A stretch of DNA of 64,000 nucleotides, from the NCBI GenBank assembly GCA_035402765.1, contig DAONDX010000003.1, positions 50,682 through 114,681 on the forward strand, written 5' to 3'. This stretch comes from Candidatus Omnitrophota bacterium. GTDB taxonomy: Bacteria > Omnitrophota > Gorgyraeia > Gygaellales > Profunditerraquicolaceae. The translations under genes and the position numbers were made by a program. Below, in pieces: positions 1,525 through 46,860 of this stretch; within the stretch, counting starts at the first letter, position 1, and each line of letters begins with the position of its first letter. The notes below the pieces were generated by a model that saw only the letters and a program-made list of their open reading frames with translations, had not been told where the DNA came from and did not search any database.

Positions 1525-1599
1525 GTTTTGCCGAAACTTTTAAGTCTTGCAAAACGCTCCGAGCCATCTTTACATGTGGCGAGGAGCCTTTGCCAACAA

Positions 1600-2595
1600 C
1601 TATTCTTCCTTACTCTTCCTGGTCATCAAATCATTGACTGCCTGCCGAGGAGACTTATCTTTATAAAGCAAATGGTATACTTCTTTAATAATAGGCATAT
1701 CTATTTTATATTTCCGGCTTAAGGCATAGGCAGATTTTGCCGTAGGAACGCCTTCTGCCACCATCTGCATATGACGGCAAATTTCTTTTAGGCTTTTTCC
1801 TTTTCCGATCAACTCTCCAACATTGCGGTTACGGCTTTGCTGGCTAATACAGGTGGTCACCAAATCGCCTAGTCCGCTAATCCCGCTGAAAGTTTCCGGT
1901 TTTGCCCCCATAGCCTTGCCTAATCTGGAGATCTCAGCCAGCCCCCGGGTAAGAATAGCAGCTTTAGTATTAGTCCCGAAACCTAAACCGTCGGATACGC
2001 CGCAGGCAATCGCGATGACATTCTTTAAGCTCCCCCCCAGTTCAACACCGGTTACATCCGGGTTAGTATAAACCCGGAATCTATTTGTGCTAAATACCGC
2101 CTGGATAGTTTTACGTATTTGCTTATTATTAGAGGCCGCCACGGCGGTTGTGGGAATCTCTTTAGCTACTTCTGAAGCAATCGTCGGACCGGATAAAACA
2201 GCCAGTTTAACCGGCCCAAGCTCTGCCTGAATTACTTCCGATATCCTTTTAGAAGATTTTACTTCAATGCCTTTGGTTACGCTTAAAAATATAGTTTTTT
2301 TAGCAAAAAGGCCTGTCATCTTTTTCAGCGTCAGACGGGTATACTGCGAGGGAATTGCCAATACGATAATTTCTTTATCCGCCACCGCTTTTTTAATATC
2401 ATTGGTGATGGTGATATTTTGCGGAATTTTTATTCCCGGCAGGAACCTGGGGTTTTGGCGGGTCTTAATCATGACTTTGCTATAGTCGGCGAAAGCCCCC
2501 CAAAGCGTAACCGGATAGCCTTTTTTAGAAAGCAATACCGCAAGAGTTGTTCCCCAGCCACCGTCTCCAATCACTGCAATGCGTAATTTAGACAT
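1600..2595 (-). CDS. gpsA: NAD(P)H-dependent glycerol-3-phosphate dehydrogenase
   Basis: 331 aa with an N-terminal GxGxxG motif (IAVIGDGGWGTTLA) and end-to-end GpsA-family similarity. Confidence 0.9.
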   Translation of the reverse strand: MSKLRIAVIGDGGWGTTLAVLLSKKGYPVTLWGAFADYSKVMIKTRQNPRFLPGIKIPQNITITNDIKKAVADKEIIVLAIPSQYTRLTLKKMTGLFAKKTIFLSVTKGIEVKSSKRISEVIQAELGPVKLAVLSGPTIASEVAKEIPTTAVAASNNKQIRKTIQAVFSTNRFRVYTNPDVTGVELGGSLKNVIAIACGVSDGLGFGTNTKAAILTRGLAEISRLGKAMGAKPETFSGISGLGDLVTTCISQQSRNRNVGELIGKGKSLKEICRHMQMVAEGVPTAKSAYALSRKYKIDMPIIKEVYHLLYKDKSPRQAVNDLMTRKSKEE

Positions 2596-2598
2596 AGC

Positions 2599-3345
2599 TT
2601 ATTTCAAGTCCCTCTTTTTATTTGTTCTTAACATGGCTAATTCCCAGGCATAATCGTAAAGGTGCAAACCCTTGCTCACGGCAATAATTTCTCCGTCCTC
2701 AACTCCGATTTCTTCAGCCATATATTGTTTTACCAGCTGCAAACCTCCCAAATTCGAAGGGAAACCGCCCCAAAGATCCCAGGAACGAAAGTAAAGTATA
2801 AAATGTAATTTACCATAACGCAGCCGCGTATCAATTAACCTTAGGCAAGGTGGATCAACCAGTTTAATATCCGAAGGCATGCCGATTTCCATGACTGCCT
2901 GATTAGTGCCGGGGCCTTTCTCCTTGTACATTTTAATTACTTCTTCCACCTGGTTGACATTTAAAGGCATATCCGAAATCAATTCCCGGCCGTTTAAATT
3001 CTGTTTGATCCTGACTTTAGGATCAACTAATCTTTCTCCGTAAGTATAATCTTCAGTTTCGGTTTTGGCTCCGGTTAAAAGGTAACTTAAATACCCCTGG
3101 ATATAGTCCATATCGGTAGGAGCGGGAATATTCATTCCTTCCGGGATAATCGGAATGATTTGATGGCCGGGCCTCTTCACCCGGACAGAAACAAAATCAA
3201 ACTCCAATCTTTTTTGCCCGGTATAGCTGCCTCGGGTGATAGTATACAAATGCCCTTGGTCTAAGATCGCGGATAAACATTGGAACCAGGCGTCATCAAG
3301 ATCAAAAGCATCGATAAAAACCGGTTTTAAGAATTCTTCGGCCAT
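2599..3345 (-). CDS. thymidylate synthase family protein (ThyA-like; divergent, possibly archaeal/methanogen type)
   Basis: The ThyA core is recognisable: DPPCL...LYFRSWDLWGGFPSNLGGLQLV...GLHLYDYAWE, compared with ThyA PPCH...LYQRSxDxxLGxPFNIASYALL...GDxHIY. The residue after the catalytic Cys is Leu rather than His. Confidence 0.55.
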   Translation of the reverse strand: MAEEFLKPVFIDAFDLDDAWFQCLSAILDQGHLYTITRGSYTGQKRLEFDFVSVRVKRPGHQIIPIIPEGMNIPAPTDMDYIQGYLSYLLTGAKTETEDYTYGERLVDPKVRIKQNLNGRELISDMPLNVNQVEEVIKMYKEKGPGTNQAVMEIGMPSDIKLVDPPCLRLIDTRLRYGKLHFILYFRSWDLWGGFPSNLGGLQLVKQYMAEEIGVEDGEIIAVSKGLHLYDYAWELAMLRTNKKRDLK

Positions 3346-3731
3346 TAAACGCGGGTTCTTTCTTTAGCTTCCTTTACAAATTTTTTAAAGGTAACTATAA
3401 TTTCAGCTACCGGCATATTTTTACCGATGTAGCCGCAACAACCAAACTGCTTACTTTTGCCGATCAATTCCTCGTCGAATCCAAATCCCGTGATCATCAC
3501 CACCGGTAAATCCGAGTATTTTTCCCGGATATCTTTAAGCACATCTAAACCGCTGATTCCGGAAAGCTTAATATCTAACAACACAACATCAAAAGTTTCT
3601 TTTTTCAGTAAAGCCAGGGCTTCTTCGCCGCTGCCGCAGGTCACCGGGACACAATCTTCTTTTTTGAACAAATCTTCCAGCAAATCCCTGACCGGCGGTT
3701 CGTCATCAACAACCAAAATTTTATAGAGCAC
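3345..3731 (-). CDS. single-domain response regulator (CheY-like receiver)
   Basis: 128 aa with DD...D...T...K receiver residues (VVDDEPPVRDLL, VLLDIKLSGISG, MITGFG...K). Its start overlaps the stop of the upstream gene. Confidence 0.8.
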   Translation of the reverse strand: MLYKILVVDDEPPVRDLLEDLFKKEDCVPVTCGSGEEALALLKKETFDVVLLDIKLSGISGLDVLKDIREKYSDLPVVMITGFGFDEELIGKSKQFGCCGYIGKNMPVAEIIVTFKKFVKEAKERTRV

Positions 3732-5299: not shown

Positions 5300-5370
5300 A
5301 GCGGGAGAGGGGAATCGAACCCCCATTCATAGCTTGGAAGGCTATTGTTCTACCACTGAACTACTCCCGC
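5300..5370 (-). tRNA. tRNA-Gly (anticodon TCC)
   Basis: The reverse complement reads GCGGGAGTAGTTCAGTGGTAGAACAATAGCCTTCCAAGCTATGAATGGGGGTTCGATTCCCCTCTCCCGCT. The acceptor is perfect, the anticodon loop is CTTCCAA, and the discriminator is U. Confidence 0.85.
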
Positions 5371-5394
5371 ATTAAACTTTAAGATAGCGGCGGG

Positions 5395-5429
5395 AGAAGG
5401 CTATTATTCTACCATTGAACTACACCCGC
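5395..5429 (-). pseudogene. 5' fragment (positions ~1-35) of a Gly-like tRNA immediately upstream of tRNA-Gly
   Basis: The reverse complement GCGGGTGTAGTTCAATGGTAGAATAATAGCCTTCT is near-identical to positions 1-35 of the adjacent tRNA-Gly, with 3-4 mismatches. It then diverges into CCCGCCGCTATC, which is inverted-repeated (GATAGCGGCGG) on the far side of tRNA-Gly. Confidence 0.5.
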
Positions 5430-5438
5430 AAAAAAAAA

Positions 5439-5524: not shown

Positions 5525-5647
5525 TAGAATTTTTTGTTTTCTAAAAAATTTTACTTCGAGCGTTTCCTTTGGAGAATATCCAGGCTTAACGAGAAGTAAA
5601 TTAATTCGATCTTAAAGAACAAAAGAGAATTCAAATGCGCGTAATAT

Positions 5648-5936
5648 TTAAGCCGACGAGAGGATTTGAACCCCCGACCCGCTACCAGAGGGGCTCTGCC
5701 CCTATGGCGCTCCTCACTAACGTTCGTCGCTGTTACCCCGAATCCGCGGGGGAAGTTTTCCCCCGCACCCCTTTCGGGTCGGACGTATATTTAAGCCGAC
5801 GAGAGGATTTGAACCCCCGACCCGCTACCAGAGGGGCTCTGCCCCTATGGCGCTCCTCACTAACGTTCGTCGCTGTTACCCCGAATCCGCGGGGGAAGTT
5901 TTCCCCCGCACCCCTTTCGGGTCGGACGTATATTTA
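5648..5936 (-). repeat. two perfect tandem 143-bp units directly 3' of tRNA-Thr; each unit is a ~75-nt conserved module fused to a copy of tRNA-Thr positions 41-73
   Basis: An exact period of 143 bp is seen by eye (TTAAGCCGACGAGAGG at 5648, 5791 and 5934). Each unit contains ...TTCGGGGTAACAGC...GCGCCATAGGGGCAGAGCCCCTCTGGTA followed by GCGGGTCGGGGGTTCAAATCCTCTCGTCGGCTTA on the minus strand. Confidence 0.8.
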
Positions 5937-6009
5937 AGCCGACGAGAGGATTTGAACCCCCGACCCGCTGTTTACAAAACAGCCGCTCTACCAACTGAGC
6001 TACGTCGGC
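5937..6009 (-). tRNA. tRNA-Thr (anticodon TGT)
   Basis: The reverse complement reads GCCGACGTAGCTCAGTTGGTAGAGCGGCTGTTTTGTAAACAGCGGGTCGGGGGTTCAAATCCTCTCGTCGGCT, with anticodon loop TTTGTAA. Confidence 0.85.
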
Positions 6010-15175: not shown

Positions 15176-15226
15176 AGTATTTTATTAAAACATCGGAGGC
15201 CAAAGCAGCAAATATTCTAAAAAACT

Positions 15227-15302
15227 GGTGGCGGAGAGTGGATTTAAACCACCGACCAAGCGGGTATGAGCCGCGTGCTCTATCAGGCTGAGCTACTCCG
15301 CC
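15227..15302 (-). tRNA. tRNA-Met or tRNA-Ile2 (anticodon CAT), CCA encoded
   Basis: The reverse complement reads GGCGGAGTAGCTCAGCCTGATAGAGCACGCGGCTCATACCCGCTTGGTCGGTGGTTTAAATCCACTCTCCGCCACCA. G1 pairs with C72, so it is not a bacterial initiator. Confidence 0.8.
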
Positions 15303-15414
15303 AAATTTAAGTTTTCAAAGCTTCAATTTTTACTACACGCGGCTTGATTTTGGTATCAAGCCGCCAGATCGTTATCTTCTGCGGCGCAGTCCCTGAAGCC
15401 GCAGGCTTCAGGGG

Positions 15415-15449
15415 GAGCCGCGTGCTCTATCAGGCTGAGCTACTCCGCC
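15415..15449 (-). pseudogene. duplicated 5' fragment (positions 1-35) of the adjacent CAT tRNA, ~110 bp upstream of the intact gene
   Basis: GGCGGAGTAGCTCAGCCTGATAGAGCACGCGGCTC on the minus strand is identical to positions 1-35 of the tRNA at 15227-15302, then diverges into a perfect 10-bp hairpin CCCTGAAGCC-GCA-GGCTTCAGGG. Confidence 0.6.
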
Positions 15450-15479
15450 AAAATCGTTTTTAGATGACCAAGGATATGG

Positions 15480-44609: not shown

Positions 44610-44751
44610 AACTCCTCCTCATCTACCTAGACGACACCCGCGTAGAGTGCCCACTACTGTTTATAATATCTCCTCGATACTGCGTTAATCAACACACATT
44701 AAGTGCAATTTCAATTCACCCGGAGTGTCTTGAATTAATTTTTAATAAATA

Positions 44752-45154
44752 AAGCAGGCAGAATAAGCCGGGTTCTGTCTTGATGCCTGCCTGCCGGCAG
44801 GCAGGCGAATGCTACATCGCAGTGGCTATTCCTCTCAATTCCCGCGTTACCACGGGAACTTTAGCAGTTTACCCGAGATTGTTTTCCGTTGAAACGGAAA
44901 GCGCGCCGAATCAGCACTCATCTCCTATTCTACTTTGCTCCACGTAGAGATTGCCCGTTTCACCTCTCCGCTTGGAAGCGGATACTCGTCTCTGTGGCTC
45001 TCTTGCGCTTTTGGCGCAAGATCCCAAGGGATTATCCTCTTAGCGGTTTTCTCAAACCGCTAAGGACGGGAATTACCCGTTACGTTATTCTCCGGAGCCC
45101 GGACTTTCCTCCCGCCATTGAAACAATGACGGGCAGCCACATCCTGCCTGCTTA
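44752..45154 (-). ncRNA. rnpB: RNase P RNA (bacterial type A)
   Basis: The minus strand contains GGAGGAAAGTCCGGGCTCC (the universal P4 5' strand), ACAGAACCCGGCTTA (P4 3' strand), GGTAACGCGGG (the P10/11 region), and a terminal P1 helix AAGCAGGCAGG/CCTGCCTGCTT. Total length is ~403 nt. Confidence 0.8.
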
Positions 45155-45568
45155 TATCAAAGATTTACCCAGAGTAGAATTAACGGCTTGTGTTGCCAAT
45201 TTATCCGCCAAACTGTTCTCTTCCCGGGGTATATGGTTAATTAAAACTTTTTCAAAACCCGTTAAAAGATGCACCGCCCGGTTATACAAATTTATTATTC
45301 CGGCATTTTTAACTTTATAAATTTTATTCAACTGCCGGGCTAAAAGCTGACTGTCAGTATTTATTTTTACGCTTTTAGCTTTTAACAGCAGGGCTTCTTC
45401 AAGCGCATAAATAAGGGCCGTATATTCAGCGATGTTATTAGTAGCCAGACCGATATAGCTTGAGATGTTCTTAATCCGCAAACCATCCCGGTAAATTACA
45501 ACCCCTACCCCGCTATGCCCCGGGTTACCCTGGGAGGCCCCATCTATATAAATCTCTAAATGGTTCAT
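45152..45568 (-). CDS. rnhA: ribonuclease HI
   Basis: 138 aa beginning IYIDGASQGNPG...TNNIAEYTALI. Confidence 0.9.
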   Translation of the reverse strand: MNHLEIYIDGASQGNPGHSGVGVVIYRDGLRIKNISSYIGLATNNIAEYTALIYALEEALLLKAKSVKINTDSQLLARQLNKIYKVKNAGIINLYNRAVHLLTGFEKVLINHIPREENSLADKLATQAVNSTLGKSLI

Positions 45569-46364: not shown

Positions 46365-46438
46365 TGGGCGATAGAGGACTCGAACCTCTGACATCTACAA
46401 TGTGAATGTAGCGCTCTAACCAACTGAGCCAATCGCCC
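46365..46438 (-). tRNA. tRNA-Val (anticodon CAC)
   Basis: The reverse complement reads GGGCGATTGGCTCAGTTGGTTAGAGCGCTACATTCACATTGTAGATGTCAGAGGTTCGAGTCCTCTATCGCCCA, with anticodon loop TTCACAT. Confidence 0.85.
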
Positions 46439-46606
46439 TCAAATTTTCGAGTGAAACGAGAAAATTTTACTCCGCGCTTTACCTTAATCTGGAAATCTAG
46501 GTCAAGCGATGAGAAATCGTATAATAACCTGTTAAACTTTATCCCTCGTCAGACCGATATTTATTTAATAAGGTATCCTCGGAGTGATTTTGTGAAGCAA
46601 AAATCA

Positions 46607-46700
46607 TGGGCCCACAGGGACTCGAACCCCGGACCAATTACCAAAGGGGCTCTGCCCCTATGGCGCTTTGCTGTTACCCCGAAATCGTGGGGAAAAGTTT
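46607..46700 (-). repeat. single copy of the conserved ~75-nt module fused to a duplicate of positions 41-73 of the adjacent CAT tRNA (homologous to the units at 5648-5936)
   Basis: The minus strand reads ...CGATTTCGGGGTAACAGCAAAGCGCCATAGGGGCAGAGCCCCTTTGGTA followed by ATTGGTCCGGGGTTCGAGTCCCTGTGGGCCCA. The tRNA-derived part is identical to tRNA 46787-46860 positions 41-73. Confidence 0.6.
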
Positions 46701-46786
46701 AATTACCTTTATAGCTCCTTCGAGCTTGAACCTGGATAAATTCTTTAGGTATCGCTCGAAGTGAATTTTTACTTCGTAAAAATTCA

Positions 46787-46860
46787 TGGGCCCACAGGGA
46801 CTCGAACCCCGGACCAATTGATTATGAGTCAACTGCTCTAACCGACTGAGCTATGGGCCC
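46787..46860 (-). tRNA. tRNA-Met or tRNA-Ile2 (anticodon CAT), elongator type
   Basis: The reverse complement reads GGGCCCATAGCTCAGTCGGTTAGAGCAGTTGACTCATAATCAATTGGTCCGGGGTTCGAGTCCCTGTGGGCCCA. Confidence 0.85.

What the first reader, a model, noticed from the sequence alone, without database searches (positions are those of the whole stretch)
46607..46776. Second locus with the same module fused to positions 41-73 of tRNA-Met(CAT), plus a shared long-hairpin module
The 3' flank of the CAT tRNA at 46787-46860 carries GCGCCATAGGGGCAGAGCCCCTTTGGTA joined to the tRNA's own positions 41-73. Between this and the tRNA is a long hairpin (CTTCGAGC-N28-GCTCGAAG at 46718-46761) whose stem and loop are homologous, in inverted orientation, to a hairpin at 5559-5612 in the tRNA-Thr/Tyr locus. 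So two independent tRNA genes carry a composite of a 75-nt module, a tRNA 3' copy and a hairpin module. The junction is again at tRNA position ~41. That matches what related attP arms carrying different core (tRNA) specificities would look like. Alternatively it is a conserved tRNA-trailer RNA element.
Basis: seen in the sequence. Interest (0 to 1): 0.7.

Follow-up and report, generated by a model that had tools for sequence, protein, structure and literature searches.

The report
New tRNA-linked structured RNA family
The repeat beside tRNA-Met is a decayed copy of a strongly conserved, apparently undescribed structured RNA that in Omnitrophota bacteria sits next to tRNA and 5S rRNA genes and closes its fold with a duplicated piece of the neighbouring gene; it is not a phage-integration scar.

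Summary
The same module lies 3' of tRNA-Met(CAU) and, twice in tandem, 3' of tRNA-Thr(UGU). Each copy is fused to an exact 33-nt copy of that tRNA's 3' part. A related hairpin lies in both loci, in opposite orientation.

The module is not an att arm. A 19-mer from it hits 79 loci, about 74 of them true module copies in many Omnitrophota species. It sits at orthologous tRNA loci (Met-Val, Lys-Leu, Thr-Tyr) among housekeeping genes, with no recurrent recombinase.

It folds as an RNA multi-helix junction on the tRNA-sense strand. Covariation and a conserved U.G wobble support this. The closing helix P1 pairs a 5' strand with the start of the duplicated tRNA piece. Other copies lie directly in front of whole tRNAs, in front of ribosome-binding sites, or on both sides of 5S rRNA. 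No Rfam 15 family or paper matches.

The Met copy (46640-46714) has lost the 5' strand of P1, the 5' strand of H1 and hairpin B. It is probably a relic; the two Thr copies are intact.

Function is unknown. My best model is a stable non-coding RNA cut out by tRNA processing. Rivals are a self-propagating element, a cis-regulator or a ribozyme.

The parts
46787..46860 (-). tRNA-Met(CAU) gene, by sequence possibly a tRNA-Ile2 type. It is the upstream partner of the element.
   Evidence: ARAGORN and Rfam tRNA at 73.5 bits. A promoter-like site lies upstream at 46992-46964 on the minus strand.
46762..46786 (-). A+T-rich hairpin directly after tRNA-Met (UGAAUUUUUAC GAAG UAAAAAUUCA). It is part of the trailer that is also partly repeated after the tRNA fragment.
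   Evidence: Fold. The similarity of trailer A to trailer B is seen.
46718..46761 (.). Long hairpin CTTCGAGC-N28-GCTCGAAG. It is a lineage-specific insertion that occupies the place where the 5' strand of P1 and the 5' half of H1 should be. It is related, in inverted orientation, to 5559-5612.
   Evidence: It is absent from the orthologous Met-Val loci L011, L176 and L111.
46640..46714 (-). Degenerate module core. It keeps the H1 3' strand CCCCACG (46686-46692), GGGGUAACAGC (46670-46680) and hairpin C CCAUAGGGGCAGAGCCCCUUUGG (46641-46663). It lacks the 5' strand of P1, the G-run, the 5' strand of H1 and hairpin B, which is reduced to AAA at 46667-46669.
   Evidence: Model R1 scores it 45.3 bits, against 87.4 bits for the Thr copies.
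46607..46639 (-). Exact 33-nt copy of tRNA-Met positions about 41-73 (variable loop, T arm, acceptor 3' strand, discriminator). In intact orthologues its start is the 3' strand of P1.
   Evidence: The direct repeat 46599-46639 / 46779-46819 is 98% identical.
46365..46438 (-). tRNA-Val(CAC), the next gene of the operon. The Met-element-Val order is conserved in other Omnitrophota.
5937..6009 (-). tRNA-Thr(UGU), the upstream partner of the two intact elements.
5794..5936 (-). Intact element, unit 1. It comprises a spacer, the 5' strand of P1 CCGACCCG (5918-5925), the module core (5827-5920) and a 33-nt tRNA-Thr copy (5794-5826) whose CGGGUCGG (5817-5824) pairs with the 5' strand.
   Evidence: R1 at 87.4 bits, sequence and fold, tandem repeat.
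5651..5793 (-). Intact element, unit 2, 100% identical to unit 1. Core at 5684-5777, tRNA-Thr copy at 5651-5683.
   Evidence: Only one unit is present in an independent assembly.
5559..5612 (.). Hairpin related to 46718-46761 but inverted relative to the tRNAs. On the tRNA-sense strand it is followed by AAAAUUUUUU, so it may be a terminator after the element array.
   Evidence: It is absent from the orthologous Thr-Tyr loci L005 and L046. The terminator scan did not call it.

Best explanation
WHAT IT IS (shown). The module is the core of a conserved structured non-coding RNA, transcribed in the same sense as the tRNAs. It belongs to a family that is widespread in Candidatus Omnitrophota and abundant in metagenomes.

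From 5' to 3' the fold is a multi-helix junction:
- P1
- AAAGGG
- hairpin H1
- YUUUC-GGGGUAACAG
- hairpin B
- hairpin C (CCAUAGGGGC-loop-GCCCCUUUGG, with a U.U mismatch)
- optional hairpin D (AGCGA...GAGCGAC)

In the commonest form the element lies 70-140 nt after a tRNA gene. P1 is then made by a 5' strand that is antisense to the tRNA's variable-loop and T-arm region, paired with a duplicated copy of that tRNA's 3' part. The copied acceptor 3' strand is left as a tail. In other forms P1 is a local hairpin, and the module ends 0-3 nt before position +1 of a complete tRNA, or 1-4 nt before a ribosome-binding site.

The two Thr-linked copies in the window are intact. The Met-linked copy of this finding has lost the 5' strand of P1, the 5' strand of H1 and hairpin B, where a lineage-specific hairpin is inserted. 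It is most likely a non-functional relic.

HOW IT WORKS (inferred). The RNA is co-transcribed with the tRNAs, or made from a promoter in the A+T-rich spacer. Its ends are set by the tRNA-processing machinery. RNase Z or RNase E cuts after the upstream tRNA. RNase P cuts at the downstream tRNA, and 3' exonucleases then trim back to P1. P1 locks and protects the junction. The invariant junction strands (GGGGUAACAG, CGCCAUAGGGG) form the site that binds a protein, ligand or RNA partner.

The tRNA-derived arms of P1 are best explained by local duplication and template-switch events next to the tRNA. Recombination with the tRNA gene then keeps them identical to it.
For: Distribution. A 19-mer found 79 genome loci, about 74 of them true copies, almost all in different Omnitrophota species including the complete genome of Velamenicoccus archaeovorus.

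RNA-level structure. On 52 sequences, 10 of 26 pairs change on both sides. U.G is kept at one H1 pair in 46 of 52. The covariation score is 0.205 against 0.091 in shuffles (0 of 500 reach it) and at most 0.087 when partners are slid. On 84 metagenome matches, 21 of 26 pairs change on both sides and the score is 0.368 against 0.103. A divergent copy has a fully compensated hairpin C, UUAGGAGGGG/CCCCUCCUAA.

P1. The 5' strand pairs with its own 3' flank at a mean of -16.0 kcal/mol, against -11.4 with the flanks of other copies; 67 of 107 are at least 3 kcal better. All seven proximal bases pair in 30% of copies in cis, against 7% in trans. In some lineages a hairpin is inserted in the copied T loop and the 5' strand has co-changed, AGAACC/GGUUCU.

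Context. Of 162 distinct copies, 80 follow a same-strand tRNA and carry an exact copy of at least 12 nt of its 3' end. Ten more follow a tRNA without such a copy. Eleven were classed as preceding a tRNA, although a few of these lie at contig ends and are probably trailer copies. Four face a convergent tRNA. The loci Met-Val, Lys-Leu and Thr-Tyr are orthologous across species and lie in housekeeping synteny. In the leader form the module ends 0-3 nt before tRNA +1.

Decay of the Met copy.

No Rfam family matches.
Against: There is no expression or end-mapping data. RNase P/Z/E processing and the stability of the RNA are inferred from position only.

A purely 'useful RNA' model does not explain why the 3' strand of P1 is always a copy of the neighbouring gene's end. 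This holds for more than 10 tRNA species and for both ends of 5S rRNA.

One 5S-linked copy points antisense to the rRNA operon. It needs its own promoter, and it looks more like a property of the DNA element.

Paralogues within one genome share peripheral features. L077 has identical D hairpins at Met and Val. Hairpin D is lost from both the Thr and the Met copies in the window's lineage. That suggests copying between loci.

Tandem arrays and one island with a serine recombinase flanked by two copies fit a mobile reading.

Hairpin C's 5' strand was fixed by both search patterns, so its covariation is under-sampled. The A5 alignment is fitted to the model.
Confidence: 0.55

Rival explanations
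1. Self-propagating ('homing') RNA gene. The element spreads next to stable-RNA genes. One route is homologous recombination: the full tRNA and the duplicated tRNA piece act as portable homology arms, so DNA carrying tRNA-element-fragment can insert into any genome with the same tRNA. The other route is a guided mechanism, in which the 5' antisense strand selects the target and the duplication is a long target-site duplication.
For: - The 3' strand of P1 is always a copy of the adjacent gene's end, for many tRNAs and for both ends of 5S rRNA. The two 5S-linked modules point away from the gene.
- Some 5' strands are long perfect antisense copies. L035 has 20 nt that match the tRNA better than its own degenerate fragment.
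- Tandem arrays occur, and copy number differs between two assemblies.
- Paralogues in one genome share peripheral hairpins.
- Occupancy of tRNAs is patchy: 2 of 7 in the window.
Against: - No associated protein of any kind recurs.
- The element is conserved at orthologous loci across many species, as expected for vertical inheritance.
- The duplicated stretch varies from about 21 to more than 70 bp and can include terminators, unlike a fixed target-site duplication.
- Leader and UTR copies have no duplication at all.
- Nothing was found in phages, plasmids or viral contigs.
Confidence: 0.17
2. Cis-acting regulatory or processing domain, riboswitch-like or T-box-like. A ligand- or tRNA-binding junction with a variable P1 controls what happens to the RNA that starts right after it: a tRNA, a tRNA-like piece or an mRNA.
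For: - The architecture is that of an aptamer: invariant junction strands, a variable closing helix, and optional peripheral hairpins with GNRA-type loops.
- It lies in 5' UTRs 1-4 nt before G-rich ribosome-binding sites, and 0-3 nt before tRNA +1.
- The 3' strand of P1 can alternatively form the T-arm hairpin.
Against: - Downstream genes are unrelated: efflux pump, CorC-like protein, peptidase, oxidoreductase, small membrane proteins, tRNAs.
- No terminator or anti-terminator, and no clear anti-SD pairing, follows the common tRNA-trailer form.
- One 5S copy is antisense to the operon.
Confidence: 0.13
3. New catalytic RNA. The core cleaves or ligates at its 3' boundary, GCGAC followed by the next residue. 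The 5' strand acts as an internal guide that aligns the downstream sequence. This would free downstream RNAs with a defined 5' end, or swap tRNA 3' parts.
For: - The layout is guide, then core, then a '3' exon', as in engineered trans-splicing ribozymes.
- The closed form and the open (local-hairpin) form differ only by a break in the backbone exactly at GCGAC|P1.
- The module boundary coincides with tRNA +1.
- Diverse genomic contexts and tandem copies are typical of small ribozymes.
Against: - No similarity to any ribozyme class in Rfam.
- No biochemical data.
- The genome has a normal RNase P RNA, which already explains tRNA 5' ends.
- In three leader copies 3 nt (UUU or UCU) separate the module from tRNA +1.
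Confidence: 0.08
4. Remnant att site. The module is the arm of an integrative element, and the tRNA copy is the att core left after integration into the tRNA gene.
For: - A partial 3' tRNA copy downstream of an intact tRNA is the classical signature of integration.
- In L072 a 2.6-kb island with a large serine recombinase lies between two module copies.
Against: See the membership test. There is no recombinase in 190 of 191 contexts. The element is conserved at orthologous loci. Covariation is RNA-specific with G.U pairs. The same module stands in front of whole tRNAs and ribosome-binding sites without any duplication. In some lineages the copied T loop carries an inserted hairpin with compensating changes in the antisense strand.
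Confidence: 0.03

Closest known systems
attL/attR duplications made by integrases that target the 3' part of tRNA genes (from my own knowledge: Reiter et al. 1989; Williams 2002)
   Same: An intact tRNA is followed, after inserted DNA, by an exact copy of its 3' part.
   Different: The insert is only 100-150 nt and has no integrase or cargo. It is itself a conserved structured RNA and contains a strand antisense to the copy. It is conserved at orthologous loci across species.
Functional RNAs carved from tRNA-operon spacers, such as the 3'ETS-leuZ sponge in E. coli, and ncRNAs whose ends are set by a flanking tRNA-like unit (MALAT1-mascRNA, cut by RNase P). This is from my own knowledge.
   Same: A non-tRNA RNA is embedded in a tRNA transcript, with boundaries that coincide with tRNA processing sites. 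The module ends 0-3 nt before tRNA +1 in the leader form.
   Different: Those RNAs are short or unstructured, or belong to other lineages. None contains a duplicated piece of the neighbouring tRNA paired to an antisense strand. Processing here is inferred, not shown.
Riboswitch aptamers and tRNA-binding leaders (the five-way-junction lysine riboswitch, the T-box)
   Same: A multi-helix junction with invariant joining strands, a variable P1, tandem G.A motifs and GNRA loops. It occurs in a 5' leader position.
   Different: No Rfam hit. No common downstream gene class and no expression platform. Most copies lie after a tRNA rather than before a gene.
Guide RNAs embedded beside their own target, such as the box C/D guide in the archaeal pre-tRNA-Trp intron, and engineered trans-splicing ribozymes or RNase P external guide sequences
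   Same: A variable antisense segment to a tRNA is joined to a constant scaffold and encoded next to that tRNA.
   Different: There are no C/D boxes and no known partner protein. The antisense segment is paired in cis to a copy of its target.
Rfam RF02937 Clostridiales-2 RNA (function unknown)
   Same: It shows weak local similarity, AAAGGGGUG followed by a GGGG/CCCC hairpin, at 22-28 bits.
   Different: The score is far below the gathering score of 58.6. The rest of the model does not align.

Membership tests
Integrase att-site remnant at a tRNA gene | A direct repeat identical to the tRNA 3' part bounds the inserted DNA. | tested here: met
   33-nt exact copies at both loci.
Integrase att-site remnant at a tRNA gene | An integrase or recombinase, or other mobile-element genes, lie between or beside the repeats, at least in some relatives. 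| tested here: not met
   No such gene in the window loci. ORF clustering over 74 + 119 loci finds only housekeeping synteny. L072 is the single exception.
Integrase att-site remnant at a tRNA gene | The insertion is recent and patchy, rather than conserved at orthologous loci. | tested here: not met
   The same element sits at Met-Val, Lys-Leu and Thr-Tyr in many species.
Integrase att-site remnant at a tRNA gene | Conservation is at the DNA level (protein-binding arms), with no RNA-type pairing constraints. | tested here: not met
   Compensatory changes and a strand-specific U.G wobble.
Any family in Rfam 15, including hammerhead, HDV-like, twister, pistol, hatchet, T-box, riboswitches, HEARO/omega RNA, YrlA, tmRNA and the RNase P RNAs | The score reaches the family's gathering threshold. 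| tested here: not met
   Only tRNA and RNase P hits appear in the loci. The best hit on the module is Clostridiales-2 at 27.6 bits, against a threshold of 58.6.
Riboswitch | A conserved junction aptamer with a variable P1. | tested here: met
Riboswitch | A coherent set of regulated genes and an expression platform (terminator or SD sequestration). | tested here: not met
   Downstream genes are unrelated. No terminator follows the tRNA-trailer form.
tRNA-punctuated ncRNA (ends set by RNase P/Z at flanking tRNAs) | The ncRNA boundaries coincide with tRNA ends. | tested here: met
   The leader form ends 0-3 nt before tRNA +1 in L054, L069, L076, L024, L102, L113 and L036, and also abuts a tRNA in L085. 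The trailer form starts 10-40 nt after a tRNA.
tRNA-punctuated ncRNA (ends set by RNase P/Z at flanking tRNAs) | The processed, stable RNA species is observed. | not testable with these tools
   No transcriptome data are available here.
CRISPR-, TIGR- or omega-type guide RNA locus | A constant scaffold plus a variable guide, with an associated nuclease or transposase gene. | tested here: not met
   The scaffold-plus-antisense layout is present, but there is no associated protein gene. The antisense segment is paired in cis.
Intrinsic terminator (for the long hairpin 46718-46761 / 5559-5612) | A stable stem directly followed by a U run on the transcribed strand. | tested here: inconclusive
   The Thr-locus copy is followed by AAAAUUUUUU on the tRNA strand. 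The Met-locus copy is inverted. The scan tool calls neither.

The most novel reading that the evidence does not exclude
The family is a new kind of guide-bearing functional RNA. Its 5' antisense strand aligns the end of a stable RNA (a tRNA T-arm region, or a 5S terminus) next to an invariant, possibly catalytic core. That would let the element copy itself beside stable-RNA genes without any dedicated protein, or act in trans on tRNAs by cleaving, ligating or exchanging their 3' parts. Either way it would be a protein-independent, RNA-guided system hidden in tRNA operons.
Probability: 0.12. Interest if true: 0.95.

Novelty: categorically new. Interest (0 to 1): 0.78.

Why it matters
If this stands, it adds a widespread, highly conserved RNA class to a little-studied, mostly uncultured phylum of ultra-small and partly predatory bacteria.

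The design has not, to my knowledge, been described before. The RNA borrows a copy of its neighbour's gene end, together with its antisense, to close its own fold.

It would matter in three ways:
- It gives a concrete, testable object for how new structured RNAs arise and spread next to tRNA genes. Candidate routes are duplication, template switching and recombination.
- It warns annotators that partial tRNA copies are not always integration scars.
- It offers a compact candidate, about 120-190 nt with a sharply defined invariant core, for ribozyme, riboswitch or RNA-protein discovery.

For this window specifically, it turns an apparent 'second att locus' into one decayed copy and two intact copies of that RNA gene.

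Tried and rejected
- Rfam at gathering and at permissive E-values, on the window and on 30 related loci. Only tRNA and RNase P were found in the loci. Clostridiales-2 was sub-threshold, and a mascRNA hit at 19 bits merely reflects the T arm.
- Viral contigs, the phage collection and the plasmid collection: no copy.
- Search for a linked protein by all-against-all ORF clustering around the copies. Only spurious frames across the module and syntenic housekeeping genes came out.
- Literature searches (Omnitrophota/tRNA/ribozyme, structured RNA, partial tRNA, Clostridiales-2, Velamenicoccus). Nothing describes the element. The Velamenicoccus intron paper (PMC13153191) and the Omnitrophota complete-genomes preprint (10.64898/2026.06.07.730766) are unrelated.
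- Pairing of the A-run/G-run (AAAGGGG) with CCCCUUU. Rejected: the middle U varies without compensation and instead faces U96 inside hairpin C.
- The idea that the module is part of RNase P RNA, or homologous to its S-domain. An RNase P gene in L190 is merely a neighbour, and the window's own RNase P RNA lacks the motif.
- The idea that the duplicated tRNA piece plus the 5' strand forms a complete acceptor/T minihelix for RNase P or RNase Z. This holds only in L035. Usually the 7-8 nt of the acceptor 3' strand stay unpaired.
- A possible fourth copy at 15390-15463. It is not a module but lies in a duplicated tRNA-Met 5' half with a GC hairpin.
- blastn-short could not see the hairpin-to-hairpin similarity. 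A Smith-Waterman test with shuffles did.

Full report
**1. The observation**

All seven tRNA genes of the window are on the minus strand, so I read everything in minus-strand (RNA) sense.

The 21-mer GCGCCATAGGGGCAGAGCCCC occurs three times and nowhere else: once after tRNA-Met(CAU) and twice after tRNA-Thr(UGU). Shuffles give zero matches.

Each copy is followed by an exact 33-nt copy of the last 33 nt of the upstream tRNA. The Thr locus is a 143-nt unit repeated 2.3 times at 100% identity. The window comes from MAG GCA_964598445.1. An independent assembly with the identical neighbouring protein has only one unit.

The hairpin at 46718-46761 is exact. Its inverted-orientation similarity to 5559-5612 is significant against shuffles, though modest.

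**2. The module is not private to this genome**

A 19-mer from it (GCCATAGGGGCAGAGCCCC) found 79 loci in one-genome-per-species bacterial and archaeal genomes. Five are chance hits inside coding sequence. The other 74 loci are nearly all from different Candidatus Omnitrophota species, among them the complete genome of Velamenicoccus archaeovorus.

Nothing was found in viral contigs, phages or plasmids.

**3. Anatomy**

Lining up the copies gives, from 5' to 3':
- a variable strand
- an A run and GGG
- hairpin H1 (G-U-G-Y-GGGG ... CCCC-R-C-G-C)
- YUUUC-GGGGUAACAG
- hairpin B, either a plain stem or a CGA...GAG stem with tandem G.A
- CG, then hairpin C (CCAUAGGGGC-loop-GCCCCUUUGG, with a U.U mismatch)
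- GG, then an optional hairpin D (AGCGA...GAGCGAC)
- a second variable strand

The two variable strands are complementary and form a closing helix, P1.

Pair counts on 52 sequences support H1 and B by two-sided changes. They also show a U.G wobble conserved in 46 of 52 sequences. That is evidence for an RNA read on this strand, because the other strand would carry C.A there.

With 84 metagenome matches, 21 of 26 pairs show two-sided changes. The covariation score is 0.368, against 0.103 for shuffles and at most 0.096 for slid partners. That alignment is fitted to the model.

Hairpin C's 5' strand was fixed by my search patterns. Divergent copies found only by the covariance model show it fully compensated, for example UUAGGAGGGG/CCCCUCCUAA in L050. 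Its closing pair also varies: CG 68, GC 4, UA 4, AU 3.

P1 is supported in three ways:
- Cis pairing energy beats trans pairing energy.
- Complementarity is enriched about four-fold in cis.
- In some lineages the copied T loop carries an inserted hairpin (GGUUCUAG-hairpin-GGAG) and the 5' strand has changed to match, AGAACC.

**4. Contexts**

I classified 162 distinct copies.

| Context | Copies |
|---|---|
| After a same-strand tRNA, with at least 12 nt exact copy of its 3' end | 80 |
| After a tRNA, without an exact copy | 10 |
| In front of a tRNA (a few are contig-edge cases, probably trailer copies) | 11 |
| Facing a convergent tRNA | 4 |
| At a contig edge | 16 |
| No tRNA within range | 41 |

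The tRNAs involved include Arg, Lys, Thr, Met, Trp, Gln, Ser, Phe, Gly and Asp.

The arrangements Met(CAU)-element-Val(CAC), Lys(UUU)-element-Leu(UAG) and Thr(UGU)-element-Tyr(GUA) recur in many species. They are flanked by the same housekeeping genes: frr/pyrH/tsf/rpsB, NAD(P)H-hydrate dehydratase, and a PAS-GGDEF-HD protein. That indicates vertical inheritance.

In the leader form, P1 is a local hairpin just 5' of the A run. The module then ends 0-3 nt before position +1 of a whole tRNA:
- L054 Cys, L069 Val, L076, L024 Arg, L102 Gly, L113 Ser
- a cluster of divergent modules before three tRNA-Ser genes in L036

In the UTR form the module ends 1-4 nt before a ribosome-binding site. The genes behind it have no common theme.

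Two species have a module next to the 5' end of 5S rRNA, pointing away from it. It carries the reverse complement of 5S nt 1-37 as its 3' strand. One of them also has a sense module after 5S and its terminator, carrying the last 21 nt of 5S.

No protein family recurs near the copies. One locus, L072, has a 2.6-kb island with a large serine recombinase between two 190-bp module copies.

**5. The copy in this finding**

Model R1 gives 87.4 bits to each Thr unit but 45.3 bits to the Met copy at 46640-46714. I aligned it with intact orthologues whose tRNA-Met and tRNA-Val are identical or nearly so (L011, L176, L111). The alignment shows three things:
- The window has lost the 5' strand of P1, the G run and the 5' half of H1.
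- Hairpin B is reduced to AAA.
- The lost 5' part is replaced by about 70 nt that include the long hairpin, and the spacer to tRNA-Val is about 170 nt instead of about 12.

The long hairpin is also absent from the orthologous Thr-Tyr loci. It is therefore a lineage-specific small palindromic insertion, or possibly a terminator, present in two copies in opposite orientation. It is not part of the conserved family.

About 50 nt of trailer is shared after tRNA-Met and after its copy. So the duplicated block is longer than the tRNA part and has diverged outside it. Within the tRNA part identity is 33 of 33.

**6. What it is not**

No Rfam 15 family reaches its threshold on any subfamily. The best is Clostridiales-2, at 22-28 bits against 58.6. 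Five literature searches and two papers read found no description.

The att-arm reading fails three of its four defining tests (see the membership table).

**7. How it most likely works**

Shown:
- It is an RNA-level structured element of a large family.
- It is physically tied to the ends of stable-RNA genes.
- P1 is built from a copy of the neighbour's end plus its antisense.

Inferred:
- It is released from tRNA transcripts, or from its own promoter in the A+T-rich spacer, by the tRNA-processing enzymes.
- P1 locks and protects it.
- The invariant junction strands form the working site for an unknown partner.

I give this 0.55.

The main model does not explain why P1 is always made of the neighbour's end. 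That feature, the 5S cases, the tandem arrays and the sharing of peripheral hairpins between paralogues keep three other readings alive:
- a self-propagating element (0.17)
- a riboswitch-like or processing-control role (0.13)
- a catalytic role at the GCGAC| boundary (0.08)

The att remnant gets 0.03.

Template-switch mutation at quasi-palindromes is a known way to create perfect stem arms in one step. I cite this from my own knowledge as a plausible origin of the long antisense strands; it was not tested here.

**8. Novelty and verdict**

I rate the family as categorically new, in the sense that no curated RNA family, mobile-element type or published system I could search covers it. The caveat is that its function is unknown.

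The specific feature at 46607-46776 is a decayed member of the family. The intact members in the window are at 5651-5936.

I score interest at 0.78. The score reflects strong conservation across many species, an unusual self-closing design that uses the neighbouring gene, and clear experiments.

Noticed in passing
window 15380-15452 (minus strand): An exact copy of the 5' half (positions 1-35) of tRNA-Met(CAU) 15226-15302 lies about 115 nt upstream of that tRNA. It is followed by a GC hairpin, CCCCTGAAGCCTGCGGCTTCAGGG. It is not a module copy (11.8 bits).
   Followed up: partly
window 5380-5430 (minus strand): A degenerate mini-copy of tRNA-Gly(UCC), with the T arm missing, lies just upstream of tRNA-Gly 5300-5370. 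The genome therefore has several partial tRNA duplications that are not linked to the module.
   Followed up: no
L072 1340-4260: A 2.6-kb island with a 488-aa large serine recombinase (1586-3052, minus) lies between two ~190-bp module copies after tRNA-Arg. The recombinase stop codon lies inside the tRNA-fragment tail, and an inverted copy of its C-terminal coding part lies at 3095-3364.
   Followed up: partly
L050 2990-3530; L064 4200-4545: 5S rRNA genes are flanked by modules that point away from the gene. The upstream one is antisense to the rRNA operon and carries the reverse complement of 5S nt 1-37. In L050 a downstream sense copy follows the 5S terminator and carries the last 21 nt of 5S plus a second terminator.
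   Followed up: partly
L036 300-1300 (minus strand): This is a cluster of five divergent modules that lack the G-rich H1. Three lie directly in front of tRNA-Ser genes (UGA, CGA, GGA). The module's 3' end, TTTGGCGAGCGA, is repeated on both sides of one tRNA.
   Followed up: partly
L171 143-560 and 3613-4000; L180 5706-6100; L190 350-390: A subfamily has an extra 3' domain (...CCUUGGACAAAUUUGG-GCGCAAGCCC...CCAAAUUUGUUAGUGG). It ends exactly at the 3' end of a convergent tRNA gene.
   Followed up: no
L199 versus L200 (the same Thr locus in two assemblies): The 143-nt unit is present twice in the window's source MAG (GCA_964598445.1) and once in an ENA assembly with the identical neighbouring protein. 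This is either copy-number polymorphism or collapse of the repeat during assembly.
   Followed up: partly
window 44748-45153 (minus strand): A bacterial class A RNase P RNA (158 bits) lies 1.5 kb from the Met locus, next to an RNase H-like gene (45152-45568).
   Followed up: no
window, whole: Almost all genes lie on the minus strand, and GC skew is uniformly negative across 64 kb. This is consistent with a single replichore arm.
   Followed up: no
L084 1431-1535: A c-di-GMP-I-GGC riboswitch (66.7 bits) lies on a metagenome contig that also carries a module of another subfamily.
   Followed up: no
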